Positions 18,287 through 57,414 of a DNA stretch of 64,000 bases are shown in pieces; the stretch's first letter is position 1; the number at the start of each line of letters is the position of its first letter. Position numbers and translations under genes: made by a program. The stretch is from Peptococcaceae bacterium SCADC1_2_3 (lineage in GTDB: Bacteria; Bacillota; Desulfotomaculia; Desulfotomaculales; Nap2-2B). The stretch is from assembly GCA_000681355.2 (NCBI GenBank), contig JJNX02000003.1:12917-76916 (forward strand), read 5' to 3'. The notes beneath the pieces are model-generated. The model was given only the letters and a program-made list of their open reading frames with translations, had not been told where the DNA came from and did not search any database.

Positions 18287-18356
18287 CTCTTGCCTTTAGA
18301 ATAAAATAAAAGATTTGTAACCGGAGAATATTTTAATATTTGTAACTACCCAGGTT

Positions 18357-18385
18357 CAAAGGCACAAAGGCACAAAGGCACAAAG
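18357..18385. repeat. Octamer array CAAAGGCA x3
   Basis: caaaggcacaaaggcacaaaggcacaaag, partly complementary to the ctttgctcctctgtgcct repeats nearby. Confidence 0.8.
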
Positions 18386-18386
18386 T

Positions 18387-18424
18387 GTTTTCATTCCCCT
18401 TTGCTCCTCTGTGCCTACCTGAAT
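18387..18424. repeat. Direct repeat copy 1 (leader plus first 3 codons of the four-helix-bundle gene)
   Basis: gttttcattcccctttgctcctctgtgcctacctgaat recurs at 18591-18643 with a 14-nt internal duplication. Confidence 0.85.
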
Positions 18425-18590
18425 AGAGTTTCGACCATAACCTTCCGCCATGTTGCTGGGAATTGAAATCGCGCAACGTCTCATTTGAGAAGTTAATCCG
18501 TAAACTTCATCCTTGGGAAACCCTTTAGAAATCTTATATATTTCAGTAACTAAAGTCATTGATTTTTGCCAGACTTGCAGATCTCTATAT

Positions 18591-18643
18591 GTTTTCATTC
18601 CCCTTTGCTCCTCTGTGCCTTTGCCCCTCTGTGCCTACCTGAA
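18591..18643. repeat. Direct repeat copy 2 (leader of the four-helix-bundle gene)
   Basis: gttttcattcccctttgctcctctgtgcctttgcccctctgtgcctacctgaat. Confidence 0.85.
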
Positions 18644-18810
18644 TGGTTATATTAATTCTATGTAATAAACTAAAGAAAATATAACCTTTAAACCAGAAAA
18701 TAAAGCAGTCGAAAAATTGGAAAATGTGTTGGTAAATTTTGCTTTAAATAAGCAGGAAATTAAAGGAGGTAAAGAGAAATAATGTATTGAGGAGGGATGT
18801 TGAAGTGCTT

Positions 18811-30122: not shown

Positions 30123-30440
30123 ACTGCATTTATGTTCCGTAAAATTTAACGAAAAAATTCACAAAAAATAAATTAATAAAAAATGTTGCCAAGCTAAAGG
30201 TCTTGTGTTAAAATTTTTTCGAGGATAAAATCAAAAAGAAGTATACCTCAAAAATAACTAATTAAAAAGAATAATAATTAATGTAAGAGTTATCCGCTTG
30301 GAGCCAACCGGACCAAGACGGTTTTTTGGTCAATGAAATGCTTGCGGATAGCCGTAAGTATTTTTTATGTGATACACATTCAGAAAATTATAAATTTTAA
30401 AATATCCTAAAAAGTTTTAATTTTAAGGAAATAAAAGTAA

Positions 30441-31352
30441 ATGTCAAAACCTTCATTTGTCTTAATAGGGTGCGGTAAGGTAGGCAGTGCTTTAGCCTAT
30501 CTTTTAAAAGAAAAAAATTATCCGGTAGTTGGGGTAGCTAGTAAAAATATTGCTTCAGCTCAAAAATTAGCCGAAAAATTGAACTGTCAAGCTGTAGATA
30601 AACCGGAAAAAATAACGCGTCAGGCAGAGTTGGTTTTTATTACTACTCCTGACCGCGAGATTGCTCAGGTGGCCCAAAGTGTAGCTAGACAGGGGGGTTT
30701 TCGTCCGGGTCAAGTAGTTATTCATACCAGTGGTGTTTGTGGGGCCGGCGAATTACGCGGGGTACGGGAAGCAGGAGCCTTTGCCGTTTCCATGCACCCA
30801 ATTCAAGCGGTAGCTGATGTAGAAACAGCCCTTAAAAATTTACCTGGCTCTTATTTTGCCCTGGAAGGAGATGCCGAAGCATTACCGGTAGCAACCGCCA
30901 TAGTTTCTGATTTAGGTGGGCATTTTTTCTTTATTCAGGCTAAAGATAAGCCCCTTTACCACGCGGCGGCCTGTATAATTTCAAACTATTTAGTGGGGCT
31001 GGCGTATTTTAGCACGGGATTGTACCAAAGCTTTGGGTTATCAAGAAAAGAAGCTTTTCAAGCCTTGTTACCCCTTATTCAGGGCACGCTTAATAATATT
31101 AAACAAAATGGTCCCACGTTAGCTCTTACCGGGCCGATAGATAGAGGCGATGAAAAAACCATTAAAAATCATCTGAATGCCCTAACGCAAAAGGTAACCC
31201 AGGAGGAAGTGGATCTATACTGTGCCTTAGGTTTATATATCATTTCTATTGCCCGGGAAAAAGGAAGCCTTAACGTAGAGCAGGCAGCAAAATTGCAGAC
31301 AATTTTTGCTAAGGGTATGTCATGTCAGGGGGGGGAAAGTATTTTTGAATAA
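30441..31352 (+). CDS. Rossmann-fold oxidoreductase with a DUF2520-like C-terminal domain; candidate PanG-type ketopantoate reductase
   Basis: GCGKVGSALAYLL dinucleotide fold. Overlaps panB at its 3' end, which suggests operon membership. Confidence 0.55.
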   Translation: MSKPSFVLIGCGKVGSALAYLLKEKNYPVVGVASKNIASAQKLAEKLNCQAVDKPEKITRQAELVFITTPDREIAQVAQSVARQGGFRPGQVVIHTSGVCGAGELRGVREAGAFAVSMHPIQAVADVETALKNLPGSYFALEGDAEALPVATAIVSDLGGHFFFIQAKDKPLYHAAACIISNYLVGLAYFSTGLYQSFGLSRKEAFQALLPLIQGTLNNIKQNGPTLALTGPIDRGDEKTIKNHLNALTQKVTQEEVDLYCALGLYIISIAREKGSLNVEQAAKLQTIFAKGMSCQGGESIFE

Positions 31353-32193
31353 ACAAATAACCACGGCCTATTTTAGGCAGGCAAAAAAAGAAGGCCAACC
31401 AATTACTATGCTTACGGCCTATGATTACGCGATGGCCAGGCTTACAGACGCTGCCGGAATTGACGCTATTTTAGTTGGTGATTCCTTGGGCAATGTAATG
31501 CTGGGTTACGATTCTACTATCCCGGTAACTATGGACGATATGATTCATCACCTTAAAGCGGTATGCCGGGGGGTAAACAGGGCCATGGTGATTGGTGACT
31601 TGCCTTTTCTTTCATATCACTTATCTTTCGAGCAAAGCATTAAAAATGCCGGTCGTATTTTGCAAGAAGGCGGTGCTCAAGCTGTTAAATTAGAAGGGGG
31701 ACAAGAAGTTGTGCCTGTAGTTCAGGCGTTCACGGCGGCTGGGATTCCGGTTATGGGTCATTTGGGCCTTACCCCCCAGTCAATTTACCAGTTGGGAGGC
31801 TATAAAGTACAGGGCAAAGAAGAAGCTGCCGCCAGAAAGCTTGTTTGTGATGCCCATGCTCTTCAGAAGGCTGGGGTTTTTGCTTTGGTTTTAGAATGTA
31901 TCCCGGCTATGTTGGCCCGCTACTTGACTGAAAAATTAACTATTCCTACCATTGGGATTGGGGCGGGCGCAGACTGTGATGGGCAGATTTTGGTAATTCA
32001 TGATTTACTTGGTTTGCTTGAGGGACAAGCACCCAAGTTTGTGAAACAATACGCTAAACTAAGGGAAGAAATTATTCAGGCTATTCAAACTTACCGGGTA
32101 GAAGTACAAAATAGAATTTTTCCCGGTCCGGAACAAAGTTACCCTATGGCTAAAGAAGTGTTAGATAAGATAGGGGCGGAAGAATTTCTTTAA
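31345..32193 (+). CDS. panB: 3-methyl-2-oxobutanoate hydroxymethyltransferase
   Basis: TTG start after a G-rich RBS. Motifs ITMLTAYDY, VGDSLGNV and AVKLEGG. Confidence 0.9.
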   Translation: MNKQITTAYFRQAKKEGQPITMLTAYDYAMARLTDAAGIDAILVGDSLGNVMLGYDSTIPVTMDDMIHHLKAVCRGVNRAMVIGDLPFLSYHLSFEQSIKNAGRILQEGGAQAVKLEGGQEVVPVVQAFTAAGIPVMGHLGLTPQSIYQLGGYKVQGKEEAAARKLVCDAHALQKAGVFALVLECIPAMLARYLTEKLTIPTIGIGAGADCDGQILVIHDLLGLLEGQAPKFVKQYAKLREEIIQAIQTYRVEVQNRIFPGPEQSYPMAKEVLDKIGAEEFL

Positions 32194-32202
32194 AAGATAG
32201 TA

Positions 32203-32231
32203 GTTAGGGGCGTATTGCCATACGCCCTTAC
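32203..32231. repeat. REP-A-related variant palindrome
   Basis: gttaggggcgtattgccatacgcccttac between panB and panC. Confidence 0.6.
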
Positions 32232-32250
32232 AATAAGTGGGGCGTAAAAA

Positions 32251-33129
32251 ATGTTGATTTGCCATACAATTAACGAAATAAAATCTTTTACCCGTCAAGC
32301 CGCGTCTCAAGGAAAAACAATCGGTTTTGTTCCAACTATGGGTTATTTTCACGCCGGCCATTTAGCTTTAATGAGTGAAGCAAAAAAAACCTGTAGCGTG
32401 GTGGTAAGCAGTATTTTTGTAAACCCGGTCCAGTTTGGTCCGCAAGAAGATTTTACCTGCTACCCCCGGGATATTGACCGGGATAAAAGATTAGCTGTAG
32501 AAGTGGGTGTAGATGCTATATTTATTCCCTCGGTGGAAGAAATGTACCCCCCCCGTTTTTCTACCTTTGTGGAGACAAAAAAAATAACCGATTGTTTATG
32601 CGGGAAGTCGCGGCCCGGTCATTTTCAGGGGGTAACTACGGTGGTAACCAAGCTTTTTAACATTATCCAACCTGATATAGCTTTTTTTGGTCAAAAGGAT
32701 TTTCAGCAAGCGGCTACTATCCGGCGAATGGCAGAGGACCTTAACCTTAAGGTAAAAATAGTGCTTGTGCCTACCGTACGGGATAAAGATGGCCTAGCGT
32801 TGAGTTCACGAAATATTTACCTTGAAGGTGCTCAAAGGCAGGCCGCCTTAAGCATCCCTAAGAGCCTGGCTTTGGCGGCTCAAGCAGTAGAAAATGGCGA
32901 AAGGGACCCGATTAAAGTAAAAATGGCCGTTTGTAATATGCTAGCAGCCGAACCTTTAGTAGAAATAGATTATATAGAAATATATTCCTTGCCTCATTTA
33001 GAGGAGATAAGCCTTCTGCAAGGAGAAGTTCTTTTAGCAATAGCCGCTAAAGTTGGCAAGACCAGGCTAATTGATAACCTGGTTTTAAAAATACCAGATA
33101 ACTGGCCGATCATCCCAAATAAGAGGTGA
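32251..33129 (+). CDS. panC: Pantoate-beta-alanine ligase
   Basis: GFVPTMGYFHAGHLAL HIGH-type motif and FGQKDFQQ. Confidence 0.9.
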   Translation: MLICHTINEIKSFTRQAASQGKTIGFVPTMGYFHAGHLALMSEAKKTCSVVVSSIFVNPVQFGPQEDFTCYPRDIDRDKRLAVEVGVDAIFIPSVEEMYPPRFSTFVETKKITDCLCGKSRPGHFQGVTTVVTKLFNIIQPDIAFFGQKDFQQAATIRRMAEDLNLKVKIVLVPTVRDKDGLALSSRNIYLEGAQRQAALSIPKSLALAAQAVENGERDPIKVKMAVCNMLAAEPLVEIDYIEIYSLPHLEEISLLQGEVLLAIAAKVGKTRLIDNLVLKIPDNWPIIPNKR

Positions 33130-33486: not shown

Positions 33487-33513
33487 GAGACAAGGGGACG
33501 GTTCCTTTGTCTC
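33487..33513. repeat. Hairpin gagacaaggggacggttcctttgtctc (same core as the uvrA palindrome); possible panD terminator
   Basis: 7-bp arms. The core gacaaggggacggttc is shared with 55198-55213. Confidence 0.6.
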
Positions 33514-33562: not shown

Positions 33563-35146
33563 TTGCTCAAACCCCATTTAGTAAATTTTGATACCCGGCA
33601 GTTACCGGCTGAAACTTATGAATACGTTATTATTGGCGGAGGTATTGCCGGGTTATATACGGCTTGTAAGGTAGCCCGGGAGGGGGGGCAGGTTTTGGTC
33701 CTTACCAAGCATACCCTGGAAGATACCAGTACCGATAGGGCCCAGGGGGGAATAGCGGCTGCTTTAGGTCAATCAGATTCACCGGGATTGCACTTTAAAG
33801 ATACTATCTTTGCCGGGGCAGGATTATGCGACCCTAAAGCGGTGGAAATACTGGTTAACGAAGGCGTAAACCGCGTTAAAGAATTGATTAGCTGGGGGGC
33901 TCAGTTTGACTACTACGAAGGAGAGCTGGCGTTAACCCGGGAAGGAGCGCACAGTCAGCGCCGCATTTTACACGCTTCCGGTGACGCTACAGGAGCAGAA
34001 ATTCAACGTGCTCTTGTCTACCAGGCCAATCAAATTCCCAACCTTAAAATACACGAAAACTATTTTGTAGTAGATTTGCTGGTAGCCGACGACGTTTGTT
34101 ACGGGGTTTTAGTCTGCGATAACGTTAACCGGTGTTTTAAGGTGTTTTACGGCCGGGTGGTTGTTCTGGCTACCGGTGGTACGGGTCAGATATATGAACA
34201 TAATACTAATCCGGAAATAGCTACGGGTGATGGTATTGCCATGGCTTACCGGGCCGGGGCGGAAGTTATGGACCTGGAATTTATCCAGTTCCATCCTACC
34301 GTGCTTTGTTTACCCGGGGCACCTTCTTTTTTAATTTCTGAAGCCGTGCGCGGCGAAGGTGCTTGGCTGCGGAATTGTTACGGCGAGCAGTTTATGCCCC
34401 GTTATCACCAGTTGGCTGAGTTAGCCCCCCGCAACATAGTGGTACAGAGTATGCTTAAAGAAATGGTCCGGACAAATTCAAAAAACGTTTTTTTAGACCT
34501 TTCTCCTTTGGGGTGTGACGTGATCCAACAACGTTTTCCTAATATCACCCGTACCTGTGCTACCTATGGTTTGGATATTACGAAAGACCCCATCCCAGTT
34601 GCTCCGGCGGCTCATTACATGATGGGAGGGGTAAAAACTAACCTGCACGGCGAAACCAACATCAAGGGGCTTTATGCCTGCGGGGAGGTAGCCTGCCAAG
34701 GAGTCCACGGGGCTAATCGCCTGGCCAGCAATTCTTTACTGGATGGCCTGGTTTTTGGTTTTCGGATTGTAAAACAAAGTATGCGTTTTTTAACTAGTTA
34801 CGTTCCTTCGTCAGTTGAATTTGTTTGTAATTATTTAAAACCGCCTAAGGAAATAAAAATAAATAGTTTAAGACGAGAGTTACAAGCGGTAATGAATAAA
34901 TACGCCGGTCCTGTCCGTTCGGCTCAAGGATTAACAGGGACTTTAAACTTTTTTGAAAACCAGGCCGATTTGTCCTTGAGTGAGGCAAAAAATATCGCCG
35001 AAATGGAGTTACGTAATATGTTACTGGTTGGTCAGTTGATTTGTGAGGCAGCTTTAATGAGGACTGAAAGCCGGGGGGCGCATTACCGGGAAGATTATCC
35101 TGCCGCGAGCGAGAGGTGGGTTAAGCATATAATTTTACGTCTGTAG
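33563..35146 (+). CDS. nadB: L-aspartate oxidase
   Basis: 527 aa with VIIGGGIAGL FAD fold, RAQGGIAA and HYMMGG motifs. Confidence 0.9.
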   Translation: MLKPHLVNFDTRQLPAETYEYVIIGGGIAGLYTACKVAREGGQVLVLTKHTLEDTSTDRAQGGIAAALGQSDSPGLHFKDTIFAGAGLCDPKAVEILVNEGVNRVKELISWGAQFDYYEGELALTREGAHSQRRILHASGDATGAEIQRALVYQANQIPNLKIHENYFVVDLLVADDVCYGVLVCDNVNRCFKVFYGRVVVLATGGTGQIYEHNTNPEIATGDGIAMAYRAGAEVMDLEFIQFHPTVLCLPGAPSFLISEAVRGEGAWLRNCYGEQFMPRYHQLAELAPRNIVVQSMLKEMVRTNSKNVFLDLSPLGCDVIQQRFPNITRTCATYGLDITKDPIPVAPAAHYMMGGVKTNLHGETNIKGLYACGEVACQGVHGANRLASNSLLDGLVFGFRIVKQSMRFLTSYVPSSVEFVCNYLKPPKEIKINSLRRELQAVMNKYAGPVRSAQGLTGTLNFFENQADLSLSEAKNIAEMELRNMLLVGQLICEAALMRTESRGAHYREDYPAASERWVKHIILRL

Positions 35147-50580: not shown

Positions 50581-51529
50581 GGCAGGCTAAGGCAATCGCC
50601 CCATACAGGCCTGAGCGGTCACCCAATCCCGCAGGTACAATACAAACCTGCTGCCAGGCAGCCTGCATGGCGCGGCGCGAGACTTCTTTTTCCATGGCCT
50701 CCCAATAGGGCAACCCCACTTTTAGAGCTCCTCCGCCCAATATTACCAAGGAGGGATTAAGCAAATTAATTACGTTGGCCAGGCCAATTCCTAAAGCAGT
50801 TCCTGCGGCCTTAAGAATAGAAAGAGCCTCTTTATTACCGGCCGCGGCAAGCTGGGCGATTAAATAAGTATTAATCTTTTGCGGCTCTCCCTTGGCCGCA
50901 TCCAAAAGAGTTTGTCCCCGGCCATTTTTTACTAAGTCCAGGGCTTTTTGGACCATGGCGCTTCCGGAAGCAAGCGTTTCTAAACAACCTTTGTTTCCGC
51001 AGTTACACGTCCGTCCTTCTGGCTCAATGGTTATATGCCCCAGTTCACCCGCCCCAAAACCAGCCCCGTGATACAATTGCCCATTTAAGATTAGCCCCCC
51101 GCCAATTCCCGTACCCACGGCGGCGTAAATTAAATTCCTGACTCCTACCCCCGCCCCTTTAAGGTGCTCCCCTATGGCGGCTAAATTAGCGTCGTTTTCT
51201 AAATACACGGGTAACTTTAAAGATTCTTCCAGTAGTTGTCTTAACGGCACTTTCCGCCAACCCAGGTTGGGAGCCTGGTAAATTACGCCCTCTTTTACGT
51301 CCAAAGGACCGGGAACCCCTATTCCGACCGCCCGAACCTGACCCTTTAAACCAGCTTGAGCTGTAAGGTGCTCCACCGTCCGTACAATGTTTCGCCGCAC
51401 TACGGTCACACCCAGGGCTGCTTCCGTAGGAACCTTTACTTCGGTTACGATTTCTCCCTTCAGGTTCGCCAAAGCCGTATAAATCTTGGTCCCACCTAAG
51501 TCTATGCCGACTACTAAATTTTTAGTCAT
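50546..51529 (-). CDS. glk: ROK family glucokinase
   Basis: GIDLGGTKI, ENDANLAAIGE and CNCGNKGCLE zinc motif. Confidence 0.85.
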   Translation of the reverse strand: MTKNLVVGIDLGGTKIYTALANLKGEIVTEVKVPTEAALGVTVVRRNIVRTVEHLTAQAGLKGQVRAVGIGVPGPLDVKEGVIYQAPNLGWRKVPLRQLLEESLKLPVYLENDANLAAIGEHLKGAGVGVRNLIYAAVGTGIGGGLILNGQLYHGAGFGAGELGHITIEPEGRTCNCGNKGCLETLASGSAMVQKALDLVKNGRGQTLLDAAKGEPQKINTYLIAQLAAAGNKEALSILKAAGTALGIGLANVINLLNPSLVILGGGALKVGLPYWEAMEKEVSRRAMQAAWQQVCIVPAGLGDRSGLYGAIALACQMGSEKWEVGG

Positions 51530-53472
51530 TCTTTATTTCCCATTTCTCTTATTACATTTTCGGCCACCGCCCGATTCATTCCCGGCAAGGACGCCAGTTC
51601 TTCTACGTTAACGTGGCTTGAAGCGACCAAGGAAGAAAAATATTTTAACAGCACTTTTCGCCGCACCGCCCCAACCCCTTCAATTTCGTCTAAAAGGGAA
51701 CGCAGGCTGTTTTTGTTATGCAATTGCCGGTGGTAAGAAATAGCAAAACGGTGGGCCTCGTCACGCAAACGTAAAAGGAAGTAAAAAGCAGGGGAATTAC
51801 GGGGCAGTTCAAGCGGTTCCTGCCGGCCGGCCGCGTAAAGAAGCTCTTCTTTTTTGGCTAAAGCAAAAACAGGAAGATCGGCTAGACCACACTCCTGCGC
51901 CGCTTGTTTCGCGGCCGTCAACTGCCCTTTTCCTCCGTCTATAATAATTAGGTCGGGTAAACGGGCATAAGCGGCTTGTTTATTGTCATCAGGCTTTTCG
52001 AGGTTCGAGGTTCGAGGTTCGAGGTTCGAGGTTCGATTCGAACTTCTAACTTCTAATTTCGAACTTCGAGAAGCCTCCTGGGCCCTTCTTAAACGGCGTT
52101 TTACCACTTCTCGCAGGCAGGCATAATCATCCGCCCCGGTTACCGTTTTAATCCGGAAACGGCGGTATAAATCAGGCCTGGGGCGCCCTTCCTCGAAAAC
52201 TACCATTGAAGCTACCGCATCATGACCTTGAATATTAGAAACATCAAAACATTCAACCCGCACCGGCACTTTAGCCAGACCCAATAAACGGACAAGCTCA
52301 CCGCCTATCTCCAGCAACTTATCTTTTTCTAACCCGGCTTTTGCACCCGCATTTTCTTCCAGCGCTAATAGGGCATTTTCGCCGGCCAGGGCAACTAATT
52401 TTTTCTTTTCACCCCGTTTGGGCACTTGCAGGGAAACGGCCTGCCCTTTTAATTGAGAAAGCCAGGCCGTAATCCCGGGTAATTCCTCTTTTTCGGCCGC
52501 CGAAAGCAAAATTATGCCGGGAATAAAGCTGGCCTGGTGATAATACTGTTTTAATACGGCGGTAACAATTTCGGCTTCACCCGTGCCGGCCGTATTTTTA
52601 AGGAAGAAATGCTCCCGGCCTATAAGCCTTCCTGCCCGAATAAAAAACATGGTTACGCAAGCCTGCTCTCCGGCTGCGGCCAAGGCAATTATGTCCTGGT
52701 CTTTGGGAGAGAAAGAGGCAACTTTTTGTTTTGTCGTAACCCGTTGGATAGCCTGAAGCTTTTCGCGCAAAACCGCTGCTTTTTCAAATTCTAGCTTGGT
52801 GGCCGCGGTTTCCATTTGCTTTTTTAAAGCTCGCCGCAAATCTTCCTGGCGGCCCTCCAAAAATAAGCATATTTCTTTAATTAACCCCTGGTAGTCTTCC
52901 CGGCTGATTTTACCGCAGCACGGAGCAGAGCAGCGCTTAATATGATAATTTAAGCAGGGACGGATATTAATGTCTGGCCCCTTTTTTACCGCGGCGAAAG
53001 AATTAATTTTCTTTTGACAGGTACGAAAGGGAAATAAACGACGCAGCAAACTTAATGTTTCCCGAACCGCCACTACCTGGGTGTATGGACCAAAATAACG
53101 TGCGCCGTCGGCTGCCGGACGACGGGTTATAAATACCCGCGGGAAATCTTCCGGAGTGGTTATTTTTAAGTAAGGATAGCTTTTATCGTCTTTAAGGTTA
53201 ACGTTGTACCGCGGGCGGTGTTTTTTAATCAGGTTACCTTCTAAAATCAAGGCTTCAACCTCATTATCGGTAACAATATACTCCAAGTCAGCCACCCGCT
53301 CTACGAGGTACTTTGCCTTAGGTAGAGCTAGGTTATCCTTTTGAAAGTATGAGCGGACCCGTTTCTTTAAAGACACGGCCTTACCCACGTAAATAATTTC
53401 TCCTGCCGCCTCACGAAAGATATACACGCCAGGTCTATCCGGTAATAATTTTAGCTTTTCCGTTAAAGTCAT
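51526..53472 (-). CDS. uvrC: Excinuclease ABC subunit C with an internal repeat-encoded insertion
   Basis: GIY-YIG N-terminus (PGVYIFR...IYVGKA), UVR domain, endonuclease domain (DVSNIQG, PDLIIIDGGKGQL), C-terminal HhH. Confidence 0.9.
   Translation of the reverse strand: MTLTEKLKLLPDRPGVYIFREAAGEIIYVGKAVSLKKRVRSYFQKDNLALPKAKYLVERVADLEYIVTDNEVEALILEGNLIKKHRPRYNVNLKDDKSYPYLKITTPEDFPRVFITRRPAADGARYFGPYTQVVAVRETLSLLRRLFPFRTCQKKINSFAAVKKGPDINIRPCLNYHIKRCSAPCCGKISREDYQGLIKEICLFLEGRQEDLRRALKKQMETAATKLEFEKAAVLREKLQAIQRVTTKQKVASFSPKDQDIIALAAAGEQACVTMFFIRAGRLIGREHFFLKNTAGTGEAEIVTAVLKQYYHQASFIPGIILLSAAEKEELPGITAWLSQLKGQAVSLQVPKRGEKKKLVALAGENALLALEENAGAKAGLEKDKLLEIGGELVRLLGLAKVPVRVECFDVSNIQGHDAVASMVVFEEGRPRPDLYRRFRIKTVTGADDYACLREVVKRRLRRAQEASRSSKLEVRSSNRTSNLEPRTSNLEKPDDNKQAAYARLPDLIIIDGGKGQLTAAKQAAQECGLADLPVFALAKKEELLYAAGRQEPLELPRNSPAFYFLLRLRDEAHRFAISYHRQLHNKNSLRSLLDEIEGVGAVRRKVLLKYFSSLVASSHVNVEELASLPGMNRAVAENVIREMGNKE
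51997..52070. repeat. Heptamer array TTCGAGG x5 plus partially complementary arm, inside uvrC
   Basis: ttcgagg x5, then ttcgattcgaa, then cttctaa cttctaa tttcgaa cttcgag. Encodes ...SSKLEVRSSNRTSNLEPRTSNLE... Confidence 0.85.
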
Positions 53473-53491: not shown

Positions 53492-53570
53492 AGGATTTAG
53501 GATTTAGGATTTAGCTAGCCCCTACGTTTTCGTTTCCCCTACATCCTAACCCCTACATCCTAGCCCCTAC
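53492..53570. repeat. Heptamer arrays (AGGATTT x3; CCCCTAC/ATCCTAN alternating) between uvrC and uvrA
   Basis: taggatttaggatttaggatttag...cccctacatcctaacccctacatcctagcccctac. The last units encode the uvrA C-terminal residues and stop. Confidence 0.8.
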
Positions 53571-56135
53571 TGTTTTTAGCCTGCCGTTCAATATCCGGCT
53601 CAAATACTGGCCGGTGTACGAGTTGGGCGCTTTAATCACTTCTTCCGGGGTTCCGGTCGCGATTATTTCGCCCCCGCGGTCTCCACCCTCCGGCCCAAGG
53701 TCAATTATATAATCAGCTGTTTTTATTACGTCCAGATTATGCTCAATAACGACCACGGTGTTTCCGGACGATACCAAGCGGTGAAGCACCTGAAGCAGTT
53801 GGTTGACGTCCGCGGCGTGCAGGCCGGTAGTTGGTTCATCCAAGATATAAACAGTCTGGCCGCCTGCCCTCCGCGCCAGTTCTGTAGCCAGCTTAACCCG
53901 CTGGGCTTCACCGCCTGAAAGTTCTGGGGCCGGTTGACCCAACCGGATATAACCTAAACCTACATCGTGAATTGTCTTCAGTCGCCGGTATATCTTAGGA
54001 ATGGGCTGAAAAAATTCCAGGGCCTGGTCTACCGTCAAATCCAACACCTCAGCAATATTTTTCCCTTTGTATTTTACCTCCAGCGTTTCCCGGTTATAGC
54101 GCCGCCCTTTACAAATTTCACAGGGTACGTAAACAGCCGGCAAAAAATGCATTTCAATCTTTATAATACCGTCCCCGTAACAGGCCTCACAACGGCCTCC
54201 TTTGACGTTAAAACTAAACCGTCCGGCTTTATAGCCCCGCAGCCTGGCTTCGGGAAGTTGGGCAAATAACTCCCGAATGTCATCAAATACCCCGGTATAA
54301 GTACCTGGATTAGAACGCGGGGTACGCCCAATGGGAGACTGGTCAATGTTAATTACTTTATCCACGTTTTCGACGCCCTTAACTTCCTGGCAGGCCGAAG
54401 GTGGTTCTTTTGAGTTGTATAATTCGGAAACCATACTCTTATATAAAACCTCATTTACCAGGGTGCTTTTGCCTGAACCGGAAACACCCGTAACACAAAT
54501 AAACACCCCCAAGGGAAAACTTACGTCAATATTCTTTAAATTATACACGCGGGCCCCTTTTATGGTTAAAACCTTATTTTTGTCCTGCCTATGCCGGACA
54601 GCCGGCACAGGAATATACTTTTTTCCGCTTAAGTATTGGCCGGTAAGGGAAGCAGGGGTACGGACAATATCCTGCAGCGTCCCCTGGGCCACTACTTCGC
54701 CGCCGTTTACCCCGGCACCGGGGCCAATATCAACAATATAATCAGCCGTCCGCATGGTTTCTTCATCGTGTTCCACCACTATCACCGTATTGCCAAGGTC
54801 CCGCAGGTGGCTTAGGGTAGCCAGCAAACGCTGGTTATCACGAGGGTGCAAGCCAATACTGGGTTCATCAAGGATGTAGAGCACCCCGGTTAAGCCGCTG
54901 CCAATTTGGGTGGCTAAACGAATCCGCTGGGCCTCACCCCCGGCAAGCGTACCGGCTTTGCGGTCGAGGGTAAGGTAATCAAGGCCTACGTCAACTAAAA
55001 AATTTAAGCGGGCGATAATTTCTTTTAATATTTGGCGGGCAATTAACTGTTCCCGAGGGGTTAAGGTCAAGTTTTGAAAGAAATTTAACGCCTCGCCAAT
55101 TGAAAAACGGGTTACTTCAACAATGGAAAGCTCCCCTATTTTTATGGCCAAGGCTTCAGGGCGCAAGCGCGCACCCTGGCAGGCCGGGCACAATAAGACA
55201 AGGGGACGGTTCTCTTGTCTTTCTTCATTATCTTTCTTCGGGGAAAGATAAAAGAACCGTCCCCTTGTCTTATTCACTTCTTTAATCACCCCCAAACCCG
55301 TACAGGTTGGGCAAGCCCCAAGGGGGCTGTTAAAAGAAAACAGGCGCGGGGAAATTTCCGGAAGGCTAAAGCCACACATACTGCAGGCAAAATTCTCGTT
55401 AAAAAAAATTTCCCTTTTTTCATCCAACACGGCCAGGGCAAGGCCGGCCGCATTTTTTAAGGTTGTTTCGAGTGAGTCGGCCAACCGCTGGGCTATTCCC
55501 GGCCGGATAATCAGCCGGTCCACCACAATTTCAACGGTATTTCTTTTATTTTTATCCAGTTTACCTACTTCATTAATTTCGTACATTTTTTTATTTATCC
55601 TTACCCGGGAAAAACCGCTCCGCCGGATTTCCTCCAGTACTTTTTGCTGCTCTCCCTTTTTTTCCCTTACTACGGGTGCTAAAATTTGCAGGCGGGTATC
55701 CTCCGGAAGGACCAATAACTGGTCTACCATCTGTTCTACGGTTTGACGGGCAATGGGCTGGTTGCACCGGGGGCAGTATGGCCTTCCCACGCGGGCAAAA
55801 AGCAGCCTTAAATAATCGTAAATTTCCGTTACCGTACCCACCGTTGAACGCGGGTTATGACCGGTTGTTTTCTGGTTAATGGAAATAGCCGGGGAAAGGC
55901 CTTCGATACTGTCCACATCTGGTTTATCCATTTGACCTAAAAACTGCCGCGCGTAAGCAGACAAAGACTCCACGTAACGGCGCTGCCCCTCGGCATAAAT
56001 GGTGTCAAAGGCAAGGGACGATTTGCCGGAACCGGAAAGACCGGTTAAAACTACTAATTTATTCCGGGGTATTTCGACCGTAATATTTTTTAAGTTATGC
56101 ACCCGGGCACCTTTAACGATAATCTTGTCCAGCAC
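53553..56135 (-). CDS. uvrA: Excinuclease ABC subunit A lacking the insertion domain
   Basis: 860 aa. Both ABC modules ([31 protein letters not shown] x2), the UvrB-binding region and zinc modules are present. The segment between CTGLG and CPACQGARL is only 33 aa. Confidence 0.9.
55192..55274. repeat. 83-bp palindromic element inside uvrA (perfect 22-nt arms)
   Basis: aataagacaaggggacggttct (55192-55213) is the exact reverse complement of agaaccgtccccttgtcttatt (55253-55274). An inner 8-bp palindrome tatctttc/gaaagata is also present. Confidence 0.9.
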
Positions 56136-56166
56136 CTAAAAAAACTCTCCCCCTGTACCTGTCTGA

Positions 56167-57414
56167 TTACTTTTTCGTACTTTCCTTGGTTTCAATACTT
56201 TTTACTTCCCCAGGAATCTGCACCTCCACGGTTTTTCCTTCCTGGGTGGTGATGCGTAAGGTCGTTTTTGGTTTTAAGTCTCCTTCTTCTTTATCCGGTG
56301 AAGAACTTATTTGTTCTTCACCTTCTTTAACCGGCGCTTTTTGGCTTCCTTTTTCGCTTTCCTTAGCTCCTTTCTTAAGCTCCTTACCCCAGCGTTCCTC
56401 TAACAAATAAAGGTTTTCCCGGTTAATTAAGCGCACGGGGGTAATTTGAGCCGGGATATTATAGTTTCCGTTCACCACCTGAGTGGCGTACTGCCAGTGG
56501 CCTGTTTTGGCCAAGCTCTGGGCCGCGTCAAAAACACATTGCGCCATGAGTTCGGGCATTAAATCCACTTCCGCTTCGTGTTCCCCCTTAAGTATGGCCT
56601 GGCTCGTCTTAAGACTTGCCCCTACCCCGGCCGTCAGCACCTGGCCGGCTAATCCTCTGGTTTTAACAACCGCAACGGCGGCCTCGGTCAAGCGGCTGTC
56701 CGTAGCTAAAATAACGTCAGTTTGATTTATTTTTGGTTCAAGCCTTTGCTGAACTTTTTGGCTGTCCTGACCCATGTCCGCTGCCGTAAATTCTTCATCC
56801 GCCACCAACCGTACTTTAGAATTACCCTGCAGGGAAGTATATAAAGCGCCGGCTATTTCGGCCGCAGGCCTATCCTCAGCGGGGCCTTTTAAAATTAGCA
56901 CATTAAGGGGACGCCGGGCTGGCAACTGGTCCTGGGGTAAAGTCGTTAAAGCTTCGTCAACAAACCGCCCCAGCAACTGCCCAGCCCGGGCATGATCAAA
57001 GGTAATGCAGGCATCTACCGGGGCATTAACGGGCAGGTTATTTAAAACCACCAACATTATTTTTTTTTGCTTTAATTTTTGGACCAAAGGTAAGCATTTT
57101 TCAGCCTCTACCGGCTGCCAGATTATTACCTTTACGCGCCGCTTTATTAATTCCGCAATCTGCGTTTCCTGCTGCTTAAAGTCATTTCGCGCGTCCAGCC
57201 AGATTATCTCTACCTGTTCCTTATCCTTTCTTTCATCCAGCACTTTTTTAATTACTTGATTTCCGTCCCCGCGCATATCGGCCAGACAAACGCCCATTTT
57301 AACGGCAGGGGACAACGGCTTTTGTTCCTCCTTATCCGAACAGCCAACTATAAGACAAAGACACACTACCAGACCTGACAGGAATATAACTAATCTCCGG
57401 GTCAAAATATTCAC
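56167..57414 (-). CDS. Lipoprotein with a periplasmic sugar-binding (PBP type I) domain and an acidic/lysine-rich C-terminal extension
   Basis: Lipobox LIVGC after a signal peptide. RbsB/LacI-like fold impression. No adjacent ABC permease or ATPase. Confidence 0.55.
   Translation of the reverse strand: MNILTRRLVIFLSGLVVCLCLIVGCSDKEEQKPLSPAVKMGVCLADMRGDGNQVIKKVLDERKDKEQVEIIWLDARNDFKQQETQIAELIKRRVKVIIWQPVEAEKCLPLVQKLKQKKIMLVVLNNLPVNAPVDACITFDHARAGQLLGRFVDEALTTLPQDQLPARRPLNVLILKGPAEDRPAAEIAGALYTSLQGNSKVRLVADEEFTAADMGQDSQKVQQRLEPKINQTDVILATDSRLTEAAVAVVKTRGLAGQVLTAGVGASLKTSQAILKGEHEAEVDLMPELMAQCVFDAAQSLAKTGHWQYATQVVNGNYNIPAQITPVRLINRENLYLLEERWGKELKKGAKESEKGSQKAPVKEGEEQISSSPDKEEGDLKPKTTLRITTQEGKTVEVQIPGEVKSIETKESTKK

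What the first reader, a model, noticed from the sequence alone, without database searches (positions are those of the whole stretch)
53553..56135. uvrA: the insertion domain is replaced in frame by an 83-bp palindromic repeat element
The translation is colinear with canonical class I UvrA through the UvrB-binding region and the first half of the zinc module ([32 protein letters not shown]). It resumes at [14 protein letters not shown]. In E. coli, Bacillus and Geobacillus UvrA, roughly 110-120 residues (the insertion domain of signature domain I) separate these motifs. Here there are only 33 residues ([33 protein letters not shown]). The protein is 860 aa, compared with about 940 aa for E. 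coli UvrA. Those 33 codons are encoded by a perfect 22-nt inverted repeat with a 39-nt spacer (55192-55274). Its core, gacaaggggacggttc, recurs in an intergenic hairpin at 33487-33513. So a dispersed repeat appears to have replaced a DNA-contacting domain of the NER damage sensor while preserving the frame. I do not know of a natural UvrA class that lacks only this domain; the known class II UvrAs lack the UvrB-binding domain instead.
Basis: partly seen in the sequence, partly recalled or inferred. Interest (0 to 1): 0.72.

Follow-up and report, generated by a model that had tools for sequence, protein, structure and literature searches.

The report
UvrA lacking its insertion domain, with REP doublet
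A small clade of uncultured oil-degrading Firmicutes carries a DNA-damage sensor (UvrA) that has lost one DNA-contacting domain yet is still under selection, and in most members a small mobile palindromic repeat, read in frame, sits in the leftover loop; each feature has a precedent elsewhere, but the combination is a useful natural experiment.

Summary
uvrA (53553-56135, minus strand, 860 aa) keeps both ATPase modules, the UvrB-binding domain and all zinc-module cysteines. It lacks the ~105-residue insertion domain (ID). An 83-bp palindrome (55192-55274) encodes N288-L315 in frame.

It is not an assembly artefact. The protein is identical to that of Peptococcaceae bacterium SCADC1_2_3. Four 90%-identity clusters (22 sequences, independent assemblies) lack the ID at the same boundaries. 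dN/dS is 0.09-0.19, like neighbouring genes.

"The repeat replaced the domain" is only partly supported. One lineage (P0003, 849 aa) lacks the ID and also has no repeat. The other lineages carry different versions of the palindrome: other outer stem, other reading frame on one arm.

The palindrome is a REP doublet (REPIN/BIME-like). Its hairpin unit (variable stem, conserved CAAGGGGACGGTTCYYTTG) occurs across Bacillota. In 17 fetched loci it lies beside, and in several flanks, REP-associated tyrosine transposase genes. It is also read in frame in selA, an amidase and a sigma-54 activator.

In-frame REP dimers in uvrA were already reported (Di Nocera 2013). ID-less UvrA modules exist elsewhere. 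uvrB has left the ancestral uvrBAC locus but is present elsewhere in the same assemblies.

The parts
53553..56135 (-). uvrA, 860 aa, class-I architecture minus the insertion domain. Identical to KFD42404.1/KFI36290.1 of Peptococcaceae bacterium SCADC1_2_3.
55434..55745 (-). UvrB-binding domain (residues 131-234). The equivalents of E. coli R216/E222 (R217, E223) are invariant.
   Evidence: Pfam PF17760, E = 1e-34; invariant columns in A2
55302..55313 (-). First half of zinc module 2 (C275-P-T-C278), immediately upstream of where the ID normally begins.
   Evidence: coordinates computed from the ORF start
55192..55274 (.). 83-bp REP doublet (REPIN/BIME-like palindrome). In frame it encodes N288-L315 ([28 protein letters not shown]). 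The segment is predicted to be a disordered coil.
55195..55221 (+). REP unit 1: AAGACAAG-GGGACGGTTCT-CTTGTCTT, a small hairpin within one arm of the doublet.
55245..55271 (-). REP unit 2, in inverted orientation, with a degenerate inner stem: AAGACAAGGGGACGGTTCTTTTATCTT.
55179..55190 (-). Second half of zinc module 2 (C316-P-A-C319), directly after the doublet.
33487..33513 (+). Solitary REP of the same family (GAGACAAGGGGACGGTTCCTTTGTCTC). It is intergenic, just after an apparent stop codon, between the panC (32251-33129) region and nadB (33563-35146).
51526..53472 (-). uvrC, immediately downstream of uvrA. This synteny is conserved in the clade and in the outgroups.
56136..56166 (.). 31-nt junction between the periplasmic-binding-protein gene (56167-57414) and uvrA. 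In the full-length relatives L127 and L128, uvrB lies upstream of and next to uvrA; here it is absent from the locus.

Best explanation
This is the orthologous uvrA of a small clade of uncultured Peptococcaceae/Desulfotomaculia (the SCADC lineage). In that clade the insertion domain, which sprouts from zinc module 2, was deleted in or before the common ancestor. A short loop was left between the two Cys-X2-Cys halves. The gene stayed functional: it is under purifying selection, all catalytic and zinc motifs and the UvrB/Mfd-binding surface are intact, and uvrB and uvrC are present.

The loop is structurally unconstrained. In three of the four lineages it holds an in-frame REP doublet. This is two inverted copies of a hairpin repeat (variable outer stem, conserved CAAG-GGGACGGTTCY-YTTG core) plus a spacer. 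In other Bacillota genomes the same hairpin flanks REP-associated tyrosine (Y1/HUH) transposase genes and is spread as singles, tandems and doublets of fixed polarity.

Inferred: the doublet arrived by Y1-transposase-mediated single-strand insertion, or by recombination with another copy. It survives only because it is in frame, has no stop codon and lies in a tolerant loop. It adds about 27 disordered residues and a strong mRNA hairpin. The doublet is a passenger in the deletion scar rather than the thing that substitutes for the domain.

Inferred from published work on engineered mutants: the ID-less protein still dimerises, hydrolyses ATP, loads UvrB and supports incision. It should discriminate damaged from undamaged DNA less well, so global repair should suffer more than Mfd-coupled repair.
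For: - **Clade-wide deletion.** Five 90%-identity clusters (the window species contributes two, P0001 and P0002) with 849-882 aa members at 89-100% identity lack PF17755. The next hits (77-78% identity, Desulfofundulus and others) are 956-968 aa and have it.
- **Orthology.** The CooT-UDG-PBP-uvrA-uvrC-ROK-GDE synteny is shared with full-length relatives.
- **Selection.** uvrA dN/dS is 0.09-0.19, against 0.10-0.27 for neighbouring genes. The clade has 15 fixed changes at 481 conserved positions, similar to a control lineage with 14.
- **Conserved motifs.** Walker and signature motifs, Zn1-3 cysteines and R217/E223 are invariant.
- **A repeat-free ID-less lineage exists**.
- **Repeat family.** Outer stems extend with a mode of 4 further pairs. 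There are 31 '+-' doublets and no '-+' doublets.
- **Transposase link.** In 17 loci the hairpin lies next to a Y1 transposase gene, and in several (e.g. L018, L020, L033, L057, L083) it flanks both ends. Pfam Y1_Tnp E = 9e-14. NCBIfam REP-associated tyrosine transposase scores 81.2 bits against a cutoff of 80.
- **The unit is mobile and readable in frame elsewhere.** It occurs in selA (84-86% identical over 80 nt, including the spacer, to the uvrA doublet of L001/L125), in an amidase and in a sigma-54 activator. The selA and sigma-54 activator copies lie between Pfam domains.
- **Loop disorder.** Residues 269-315 have pLDDT below 50 and are coil.
- **uvrB elsewhere in the same assemblies**.
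- **Mutant phenotypes.** PMC3025350: E. coli UvrA delta290-400 loses damage discrimination, with global NER hit more than TCR. A Bacillus stearothermophilus UvrA lacking the ID had no apparent in-vitro defect.
Against: - The order of events is not resolved. With outgroup rooting the repeat-free lineage groups with the window lineage (71% bootstrap; P0003-basal about 2%). The repeat was therefore either gained twice or present ancestrally and lost once.
- No complete genome of the clade was available. A second full-length uvrA, or the cognate transposase, in the host genome could not be checked.
- The repeat is sparse here: one other copy in 64 kb, and none in about 90 kb of relatives' flanks. 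Recent mobility in this genome is therefore not shown.
- No biochemical data exist for this protein.
- In Ecm16, a UvrA-like protein, ID deletion abolished DNA binding. Retained function is inferred from selection, not shown.
Confidence: 0.66

Rival explanations
1. Repeat-mediated replacement. REP copies inserted at or around the ID in the ancestor. Transposase-mediated excision, or recombination between copies, then removed the domain and left one doublet as the scar. The P0003 lineage lost the doublet later.
For: Rooted trees place the repeat-free lineage inside the clade, not at its base (dS values), so 'ancestral presence plus one loss' is as parsimonious in steps as 'two gains'. Multiple REP insertions within one uvrA are documented: O. 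terrae Oter_3168 has dimers at residues 224-239 and 440-462, the second lying near the expected position of the ID. The right arm is read in the same frame (RQENRP) in all repeat-bearing lineages.
Against: - The window and P0004-group doublets differ in outer stem (AAGACAAG against GGCA[A/T]G), in the reading frame of the left arm, in core-to-core distance (52 against 54 nt) and in junctions.
- The window's stem matches its own genome's solitary copy. The P0004-type doublet, spacer included, recurs in selA of another genome, so spacer similarity is a family trait and not evidence of common descent at this site.
- P0003 and the P0004 group share native flanks (NY...YSSE[Q/R]V) that the window has lost.
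- The P0003 linker shows no detectable similarity to the doublet (p = 0.1-0.9).
Confidence: 0.22
2. The palindrome is kept for a function of its own. It could be an mRNA hairpin that tunes UvrA translation or stability or is cut by RNase III. It could be a DNA cruciform or protein-binding site. Or the encoded peptide could partly substitute for the ID in contacting DNA.
For: The arms stay perfectly complementary in each lineage (22-24 nt), although the flanks and spacer diverge. Between L001 and L125 one position differs on both arms in a compensatory way (GGCATG...CATGCC against GGCAAG...CTTGCC). The hairpin is very stable. The encoded peptide is rich in K/R (KTRGRF...KK...R).
Against: The P0003 lineage does without it under the same selection regime. 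The left arm is read in different frames, giving unrelated peptides ([11 protein letters not shown] against GMGTVLLPAV). The left stem is eroded in P0005. The peptide is predicted to be disordered. Concerted arm changes can also come from replacement by another family member or from hairpin-templated repair.
Confidence: 0.09
3. Artefact or decay: either assembly collapse at a palindrome in an MDA-amplified single-cell genome, or a uvrA pseudogene drifting after loss of function.
For: The source genome is a co-assembly of amplified single cells (PMC4161757), and palindromes are classic sites of chimeras.
Against: The same 860-aa protein occurs in 10 member sequences from ENA, JGI and NCBI contigs up to 92 kb. 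Related ID-less forms occur in independent metagenomes and MAGs. The frame is open, dN/dS is 0.09-0.19, and all motifs are invariant.
Confidence: 0.02

Closest known systems
Engineered ID deletions of class I UvrA (E. coli UvrA delta290-400, Manelyte et al. 2010, PMC3025350; B. stearothermophilus UvrA lacking the ID, Pakotiprapha et al. 2008, as cited there; Wagner, Moolenaar and Goosen 2011, cited in PMC7835731)
   Same: The same domain is removed between the two halves of zinc module 2, and everything else is kept. The mutants are soluble, bind UvrB and support incision.
   Different: Those are laboratory constructs. This one is a natural, vertically inherited variant under purifying selection, with a variable and partly repeat-encoded loop.
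In-frame REP singles and dimers inside uvrA, uvrB and other repair genes (Di Nocera et al. 2013, PMC3733652: Thioalkalivibrio uvrA, both Opitutus terrae uvrA genes, R. conorii uvrB)
   Same: Palindromic repeat dimers are read in frame inside uvrA and add about 16-23 residues. The authors suggest such insertions sit in flexible linkers or loops.
   Different: Those are GTAG/CGTC-tagged REPs of Proteobacteria and Verrucomicrobia inserted into otherwise complete proteins. Here the family is a Bacillota hairpin without a GTAG foot, and it sits where a whole domain is missing.
REPIN/BIME-RAYT systems (Bertels and Rainey 2011, PMC3116915; Nunvar and Ton-Hoang, as cited in PMC6006769) and TIRYT/TIRtrons (Di Nocera 2013; subclass 2.1 of Quentin et al. 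2018)
   Same: Short hairpin repeats flank a single Y1/HUH transposase gene in inverted orientation. They are dispersed as singles, clusters and inverted doublets of fixed polarity. The transposase has a C-terminal HTH, as in subclass 2.1.
   Different: There is no GTAG/GTGG guide tetranucleotide. The conserved block is the inner stem plus loop (CAAGGGGACGGTTCYYTTG) with a lineage-variable outer stem. The motif GGGGACGG matches the TIRYT consensus GGGGWSAS at 7 of 8 positions only. Copy number appears low in this genome.
Rickettsia palindromic elements (RPE; cited in PMC3733652)
   Same: Palindromic selfish DNA inserted in frame in many protein-coding genes and tolerated at surface or linker positions.
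   Different: Unrelated sequence family and host; RPEs are longer (RPE-1).
ID-less UvrA modules elsewhere: one half of the tandem-duplicated UvrAs of Chlamydiae/Planctomycetota (P0201 Candidatus Clavichlamydia, P0160/P0289), and single-length metagenomic proteins (P0285, 849 aa, 57% identity; P0253, P0274, P0211)
   Same: The UvrB-binding domain is present, PF17755 is absent, and the Zn2 loop is 11-44 residues instead of about 105-125.
   Different: These are independent losses in distant lineages. In the duplicated proteins whose Zn2 loops could be located (P0201, P0148, P0160, P0141) the other half keeps a loop of ID length. The single-length examples are unnamed singletons whose genomic context is unknown.

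Membership tests
Class I UvrA | Two ABC ATPase modules with Walker A/B and signature motifs | tested here: met
   Colinear with 2r6f/9gxk/3pih over both halves, E = 0. GSGKS, LSGGE and ILDEP motifs are invariant.
Class I UvrA | UvrB-binding domain | tested here: met
   PF17760, E = 1e-34, residues 131-234. Matches the isolated domain structures 3fpn and 4dfc.
Class I UvrA | Three zinc modules (Cys4) | tested here: met
   C121/C124/C251/C254, C275/C278/C316/C319 and C649/C652/C672/C675 are conserved.
Class I UvrA | Insertion domain (PF17755) between the halves of Zn module 2 | tested here: not met
   No PF17755 hit. There are 37 residues between C278 and C316, against about 120 in relatives.
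Class II UvrA (UvrA2, DrrC, Ecm16) | [quoted passage not shown] | tested here: not met
   The opposite pattern holds here. The definition is from PMC3025350 and PMC10192343.
REP / REPIN-RAYT system | Short imperfect palindrome forming a hairpin | tested here: met
   outer stem mode of 4 pairs beyond the conserved CAAG/CTTG.
REP / REPIN-RAYT system | Copies flank a RAYT (Y1/HUH) gene in inverted orientation (REPtron) | tested here: met
   17 of the 119 motif loci (L005-L123) hold a RAYT-like gene, nearly all with a repeat core within 400 bp of its end. In several (e.g. L018, L020, L033, L057, L083) cores flank both ends. NF047646 scores 81.2 bits against a cutoff of 80. This was shown in other genomes, not in this window.
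REP / REPIN-RAYT system | Inverted doublets with fixed polarity (REPIN/BIME) | tested here: met
   31 '+-' pairs within 120 nt and no '-+' pairs. The uvrA element has the same polarity.
REP / REPIN-RAYT system | Conserved 5' GTAG/GTGG guide tetranucleotide at the hairpin foot | tested here: not met
   No GTAG or GTGG at the foot. The conserved block is internal. The definition is from PMC6006769.
REP / REPIN-RAYT system | High copy number, mostly extragenic, in the host genome | tested here: inconclusive
   There is only one further copy in the 64-kb window, and none in about 90 kb of relatives' flanks. The whole genome was not available. 11 of 146 motif instances in other genomes lie in long open frames.
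TIRYT / TIRtron (Di Nocera 2013; TnpA-Y1 subclass 2.1) | Flanking inverted repeats carrying GGGGWSAS; transposase with a C-terminal HTH | tested here: inconclusive
   GGGGACGG matches 7 of 8 positions. HTH_23 at residues 228-255 has E = 5e-5 and 23.5 bits, below the cutoff of 24.6.

The most novel reading that the evidence does not exclude
REP/REPIN elements are agents of protein-domain loss. On this reading, REP copies landed on both sides of the UvrA insertion domain. Y1-transposase excision, or recombination between them, then removed the domain cleanly and left a doublet as the scar. Repeated targeting of NER genes by such repeats (as also seen in Thioalkalivibrio, Opitutus and Rickettsia) would then be a recurrent route by which bacteria retune damage recognition or mutation rate.
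Probability: 0.13. Interest if true: 0.72.

Novelty: new variant of a known kind. Interest (0 to 1): 0.45.

Why it matters
The role of the UvrA insertion domain is disputed. One laboratory deletion showed no apparent defect. Others lost damage discrimination, or in Ecm16 all DNA binding. Recent cryo-EM work calls the domain essential for DNA coordination (PMC11985968).

A clade that has lived without the domain under normal purifying selection is a ready-made natural test. It has uvrB and uvrC, and an intact UvrB/Mfd-binding surface. It allows a direct test of whether repair in these slow-growing anaerobes leans on transcription coupling, or whether other surfaces compensate.

The finding also extends in-frame REP insertion, known from Proteobacteria, Verrucomicrobia and Rickettsia, to a Bacillota-wide hairpin family tied to Y1 transposases. 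It adds one more case of such repeats inside a nucleotide-excision-repair gene.

Tried and rejected
- **Exact look-up of the window protein on contigs** found nothing, because the start residue is recorded differently. The identical NCBI protein was found through cluster members instead.
- **Metagenome scan** with a clade-specific junction pattern (TGTRCGGGTTTRGGGKTGATTAA) returned only the already known LDZU01000187. No further linker variants were obtained.
- **Is the P0003 linker a decayed doublet?** Local alignment against shuffles gave p = 0.11-0.95, so no support.
- **Is 'KYAYFSL' in P0003 a remnant of the ID motif 'KYGFSL'?** The test gave p = 0.5-0.9, so it is treated as chance.
- **Rfam gathering scan** of the window: nothing at either repeat site, only a pan motif at 30222-30325.
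- **Terminator scan:** the only terminator-like call is REP unit 1 on the strand antisense to uvrA. It is not interpreted.
- **Accelerated evolution after domain loss:** not seen.
- **Assembly artefact and pseudogene readings:** rejected.
- **uvrB lost from the genome:** rejected for at least the P0005 lineage. GCA_001507835.1 looks like a whole metagenome assembly, so the MAG GCA_003445555.1 is the better evidence, and it is subject to binning error.
- **Fold search of the model:** not run, because the sequence matches to solved UvrA structures are already unambiguous.
Full report
**1.

The minus-strand ORF 53553-56135 encodes an 860-aa UvrA. Pfam finds the UvrB-binding domain (PF17760, residues 131-234) and the ABC modules, but not the insertion domain PF17755. 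Against solved UvrA structures the alignment is colinear in two blocks. Query 2-288 matches Geobacillus chain residues 21-307, and query 306-850 matches 414-957. About 107 residues of the solved protein have no counterpart.

The palindrome is as described:
- The arms lie at 55192-55223 and 55243-55274.
- The outer 22 nt are perfectly complementary; 32 nt pair at 94%.
- 19 nt separate the arms.

Each arm is itself a small hairpin of the type seen in the intergenic copy at 33487-33513. The structure is far beyond chance: as single-stranded DNA it folds at -30 kcal/mol (z = -11.5), and the mRNA region folds at -58 kcal/mol (z = -6.2).

By codon arithmetic the element encodes N288-L315. V283-V287 are native residues conserved in full-length relatives.

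**2. It is not an artefact, and it is not unique to this assembly**

The protein is identical to KFD42404.1/KFI36290.1 of Peptococcaceae bacterium SCADC1_2_3. That genome is a co-assembly of amplified single cells from a methanogenic alkane-degrading culture (PMC4161757).

The five best 90%-identity clusters in a 5.8-billion-protein search lack PF17755. They are 849-882 aa long and 89-100% identical to the query. Their 22 member sequences come from NCBI, JGI, ENA and Logan assemblies. The next hits (77-78% identity, Desulfofundulus and others) are 956-968 aa and have the domain.

All ID-less genes sit in the same CooT-UDG-binding protein-uvrA-uvrC-ROK-GDE context. Full-length relatives share this context. 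This is therefore the ortholog, not a paralog.

**3. The gene is maintained**

- Pairwise dN/dS for uvrA within the clade is 0.09-0.19. This is as low as or lower than uvrC (0.22), the binding-protein gene (0.16-0.27) and UDG (0.10-0.19).
- Walker and signature motifs, all twelve zinc cysteines, and the equivalents of E. coli R216/E222 on the UvrB/Mfd-binding surface are invariant across 31 sequences.
- The clade has 15 fixed substitutions at 481 otherwise conserved positions. This is comparable to a control lineage with 14.
- An AlphaFold2 model (mean pLDDT 74) leaves residues 269-315 as low-confidence coil.

**4. The loop varies, and one lineage has no repeat**

| Lineage | Linker |
|---|---|
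| window | [28 protein letters not shown] |
| P0004 | NY-GVGM-GTVLLPAVLDDKELGRQENRPHAW-GGPYSSERV |
| P0005 | K-GTVLLPAFLDDKELGRQENRPLAW-GGPYMNERV |
| P0123 | EGK-GTVLLPAVLYDKELGRQENRPLAW-GGQYLNERV |
| P0003/P0137/P0138 | NY-DYKYAYFSLGEQ-YSSEQV |

At the DNA level the P0003 linker has no GGGGACGGTTC core and no structure. The doublets of the P0004 group differ from the window's in several ways:
- The outer stem is GGCA[A/T]G instead of AAGACAAG.
- The core-to-core distance is 54 nt instead of 52 nt.
- The left arm is read in another frame; the right arm is read in the same frame.

Between L001 and L125 one stem position differs on both arms in a compensatory way.

An outgroup-rooted NJ tree on 825 gap-free columns gives the clade 100% bootstrap support, the P0004/P0005/P0123 group 100%, and window plus P0003 71%. 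Synonymous distances agree for uvrA, but they look nearly star-like for the neighbouring genes. The repeat was therefore either gained twice or gained once and lost in P0003.

The different stems, frame and junctions favour two gains. So do the native flanks (NY...YSSE[Q/R]V) that P0003 shares with the P0004 group, and the match of the window's stem to its own solitary copy. The question remains open.

Two tests for hidden homology of the P0003 linker, one against the doublet and one against the ID, were both negative.

**5. What the palindrome is**

I estimate roughly 17 chance matches; this is my own calculation, not a tool output. The loci are spread over Clostridia, Bacilli and Negativicutes, with a few elsewhere.

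The instances share an anatomy: a variable outer stem (mode 4 further pairs) around the conserved block. They occur singly, in tandem, or as inverted doublets. Among adjacent cores within 120 nt there are 31 pairs of '+-' polarity and none of '-+' polarity.

In 17 of these loci a 218-257-aa ORF lies beside the hairpin; in several (e.g. L018, L020, L033, L057, L083) copies flank both ends. The intact examples begin MPR.AR.KS..GIYH and are:
- a Pfam Y1_Tnp protein (E = 9e-14) with a weak C-terminal HTH_23;
- just above NCBI's cutoff for REP-associated tyrosine transposase (81.2 bits against 80).

This is the REPtron arrangement of REP/RAYT systems. The doublet corresponds to a REPIN or BIME (PMC3116915, PMC6006769).

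It departs from canonical REPs in lacking a GTAG/GTGG foot. It resembles the TIRYT/TIRtron variant, whose repeats carry GGGGWSAS (here GGGGACGG, 7 of 8 positions) and whose transposases carry an HTH.

No such transposase gene lies in the window. Only one other repeat copy does.

**6. In-frame copies are a habit of this family and of REPs in general**

Among the fetched loci, three genes carry the repeat in frame:

| Locus and gene | Encoded peptide | Position |
|---|---|---|
| L072, selA | GTVLLPEALLDVKEPGRQENRPLA (doublet) | between the two Pfam domains |
| L087, amidase | [22 protein letters not shown] (doublet) | within the amidase ORF |
| L012, sigma-54 activator | [10 protein letters not shown] (single unit) | between the AAA lid and HTH_8 |

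The selA doublet is 84-86% identical over 80 nt, spacer included, to the uvrA doublet of L001/L125. The doublet therefore moves as a unit.

Di Nocera et al. (PMC3733652) had already listed in-frame REP singles and dimers in the uvrA of Thioalkalivibrio, in both uvrA genes of Opitutus terrae (for example Oter_3168 residues 224-239 and 440-462), and in R. conorii uvrB. They remarked that repair genes are hit surprisingly often.

**7. ID-less UvrA is not unique either**

An exhaustive HMMER search of 1.84 billion representatives found other UvrA-family proteins that align with this query in one stretch with no room for the domain:
- P0285: 849 aa, 57% identity, Zn2 loop of 20 residues.
- P0253, P0274 and P0211.
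- One half of tandem-duplicated UvrAs, including those of Candidatus Clavichlamydia and of a Planctomycetota MAG.

All have PF17760 and lack PF17755 in that module. I found no paper in the held library that describes a natural class I UvrA lacking only the ID. That is an absence in a partial library, not proof.

**8. Likely function**

This section is inferred from published mutants, not measured here.
- E. coli UvrA delta290-400 is active and binds UvrB, but it distinguishes damaged from undamaged DNA poorly. Global NER is hit more than Mfd-dependent repair (PMC3025350).
- A Bacillus stearothermophilus UvrA lacking the ID showed no apparent defect on a short substrate (PMC3025350).
- In the UvrA-like protein Ecm16, deletion abolished DNA binding (PMC10192343).
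- Recent cryo-EM work stresses the domain's role in DNA coordination and in hand-off to UvrB (PMC11985968).

The clade's protein most likely still initiates NER with UvrB and UvrC, with lower intrinsic discrimination.

**9. Context noticed on the way**

In full-length relatives uvrB lies next to uvrA. In the clade it is missing from that position: the binding-protein gene abuts uvrA with 31 nt between them. A UvrB (P0387, 80% identical to the Desulfofundulus protein) is encoded elsewhere, between an ABC-2 permease gene and acyl-CoA dehydrogenase/priA. It occurs in the same two assemblies that hold the ID-less uvrA of the P0005 lineage.

**10. Verdict**

The domain is truly gone and a mobile palindrome is read in frame in its place. 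However, the deletion is a clade trait that exists without the repeat, and the repeat is best seen as a tolerated passenger from a RAYT-type REP family.

Both components have precedents. Their combination, and the natural ID-less sensor under selection, is a new variant of known kinds and is of moderate interest.

Noticed in passing
window 56136-56166, compared with L127 7241-9283 and L128 7646-9679; L130 5594-7603, L131 3967-5976: uvrB, which lies directly upstream of uvrA in full-length relatives, is absent from the locus in the whole ID-less clade. A UvrB gene sits elsewhere (ABC-2 permease - uvrB - acyl-CoA dehydrogenase - priA) in the same assemblies. The uvrBAC cluster was therefore rearranged on the same branch as the domain loss.
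   Followed up: partly
window 18339-18391 and 18577-18644; L001 17640-17760; L126 4805-4904; L072 6857-7133: A second, unrelated short dispersed element. It has inverted ends (TTGTAACTACCCAGGTTCA...) containing tandem GGCACAAA octamers. These bound about 300 bp in the window and only about 120 bp in L001 (MITE-like). The element is shared with Firmicutes bacterium UBA2203.
   Followed up: no
L072 3350-4876 (selA); L087 (amidase, minus strand); L012 (sigma-54 activator, minus strand): The same hairpin family is read in frame in other proteins. The selA and sigma-54 activator copies lie between Pfam domains. The selA doublet is 84-86% identical, spacer included, to the uvrA doublet of L001/L125.
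   Followed up: partly
L001 10873-10949 compared with L125 10857-10934: One stem position of the uvrA doublet differs on both arms in a compensatory way between two lineages (GGCATG...CATGCC against GGCAAG...CTTGCC). The arms stay perfectly complementary while the flanks diverge. This points to concerted evolution or to replacement by another family member.
   Followed up: no
P0201, P0160/P0289, P0141, P0148: In the tandem-duplicated UvrAs examined (about 1,800 aa; named sources Candidatus Clavichlamydia and a Planctomycetota MAG, others unnamed), one half has a short Zn2 loop (23-42 residues) instead of the insertion domain, while the other half keeps a loop of ID length.
   Followed up: partly
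window 30222-30325 (+): Rfam pan motif (RF01749, 39.1 bits against a gathering score of 36.2) upstream of the ORFs at 30441-33129, the last of which is pantoate-beta-alanine ligase (panC).
   Followed up: no
uvrA residues Q431P, D667A, S92G, G158E, G182K and ten others: Fifteen clade-fixed substitutions at positions conserved in at least 25 of 26 full-length relatives. They include Q431P in the otherwise conserved GLHQRDN motif and D667A in the conserved FLPDVYV motif next to zinc module 3. Whether any of them compensates for the missing domain is unknown.
   Followed up: no
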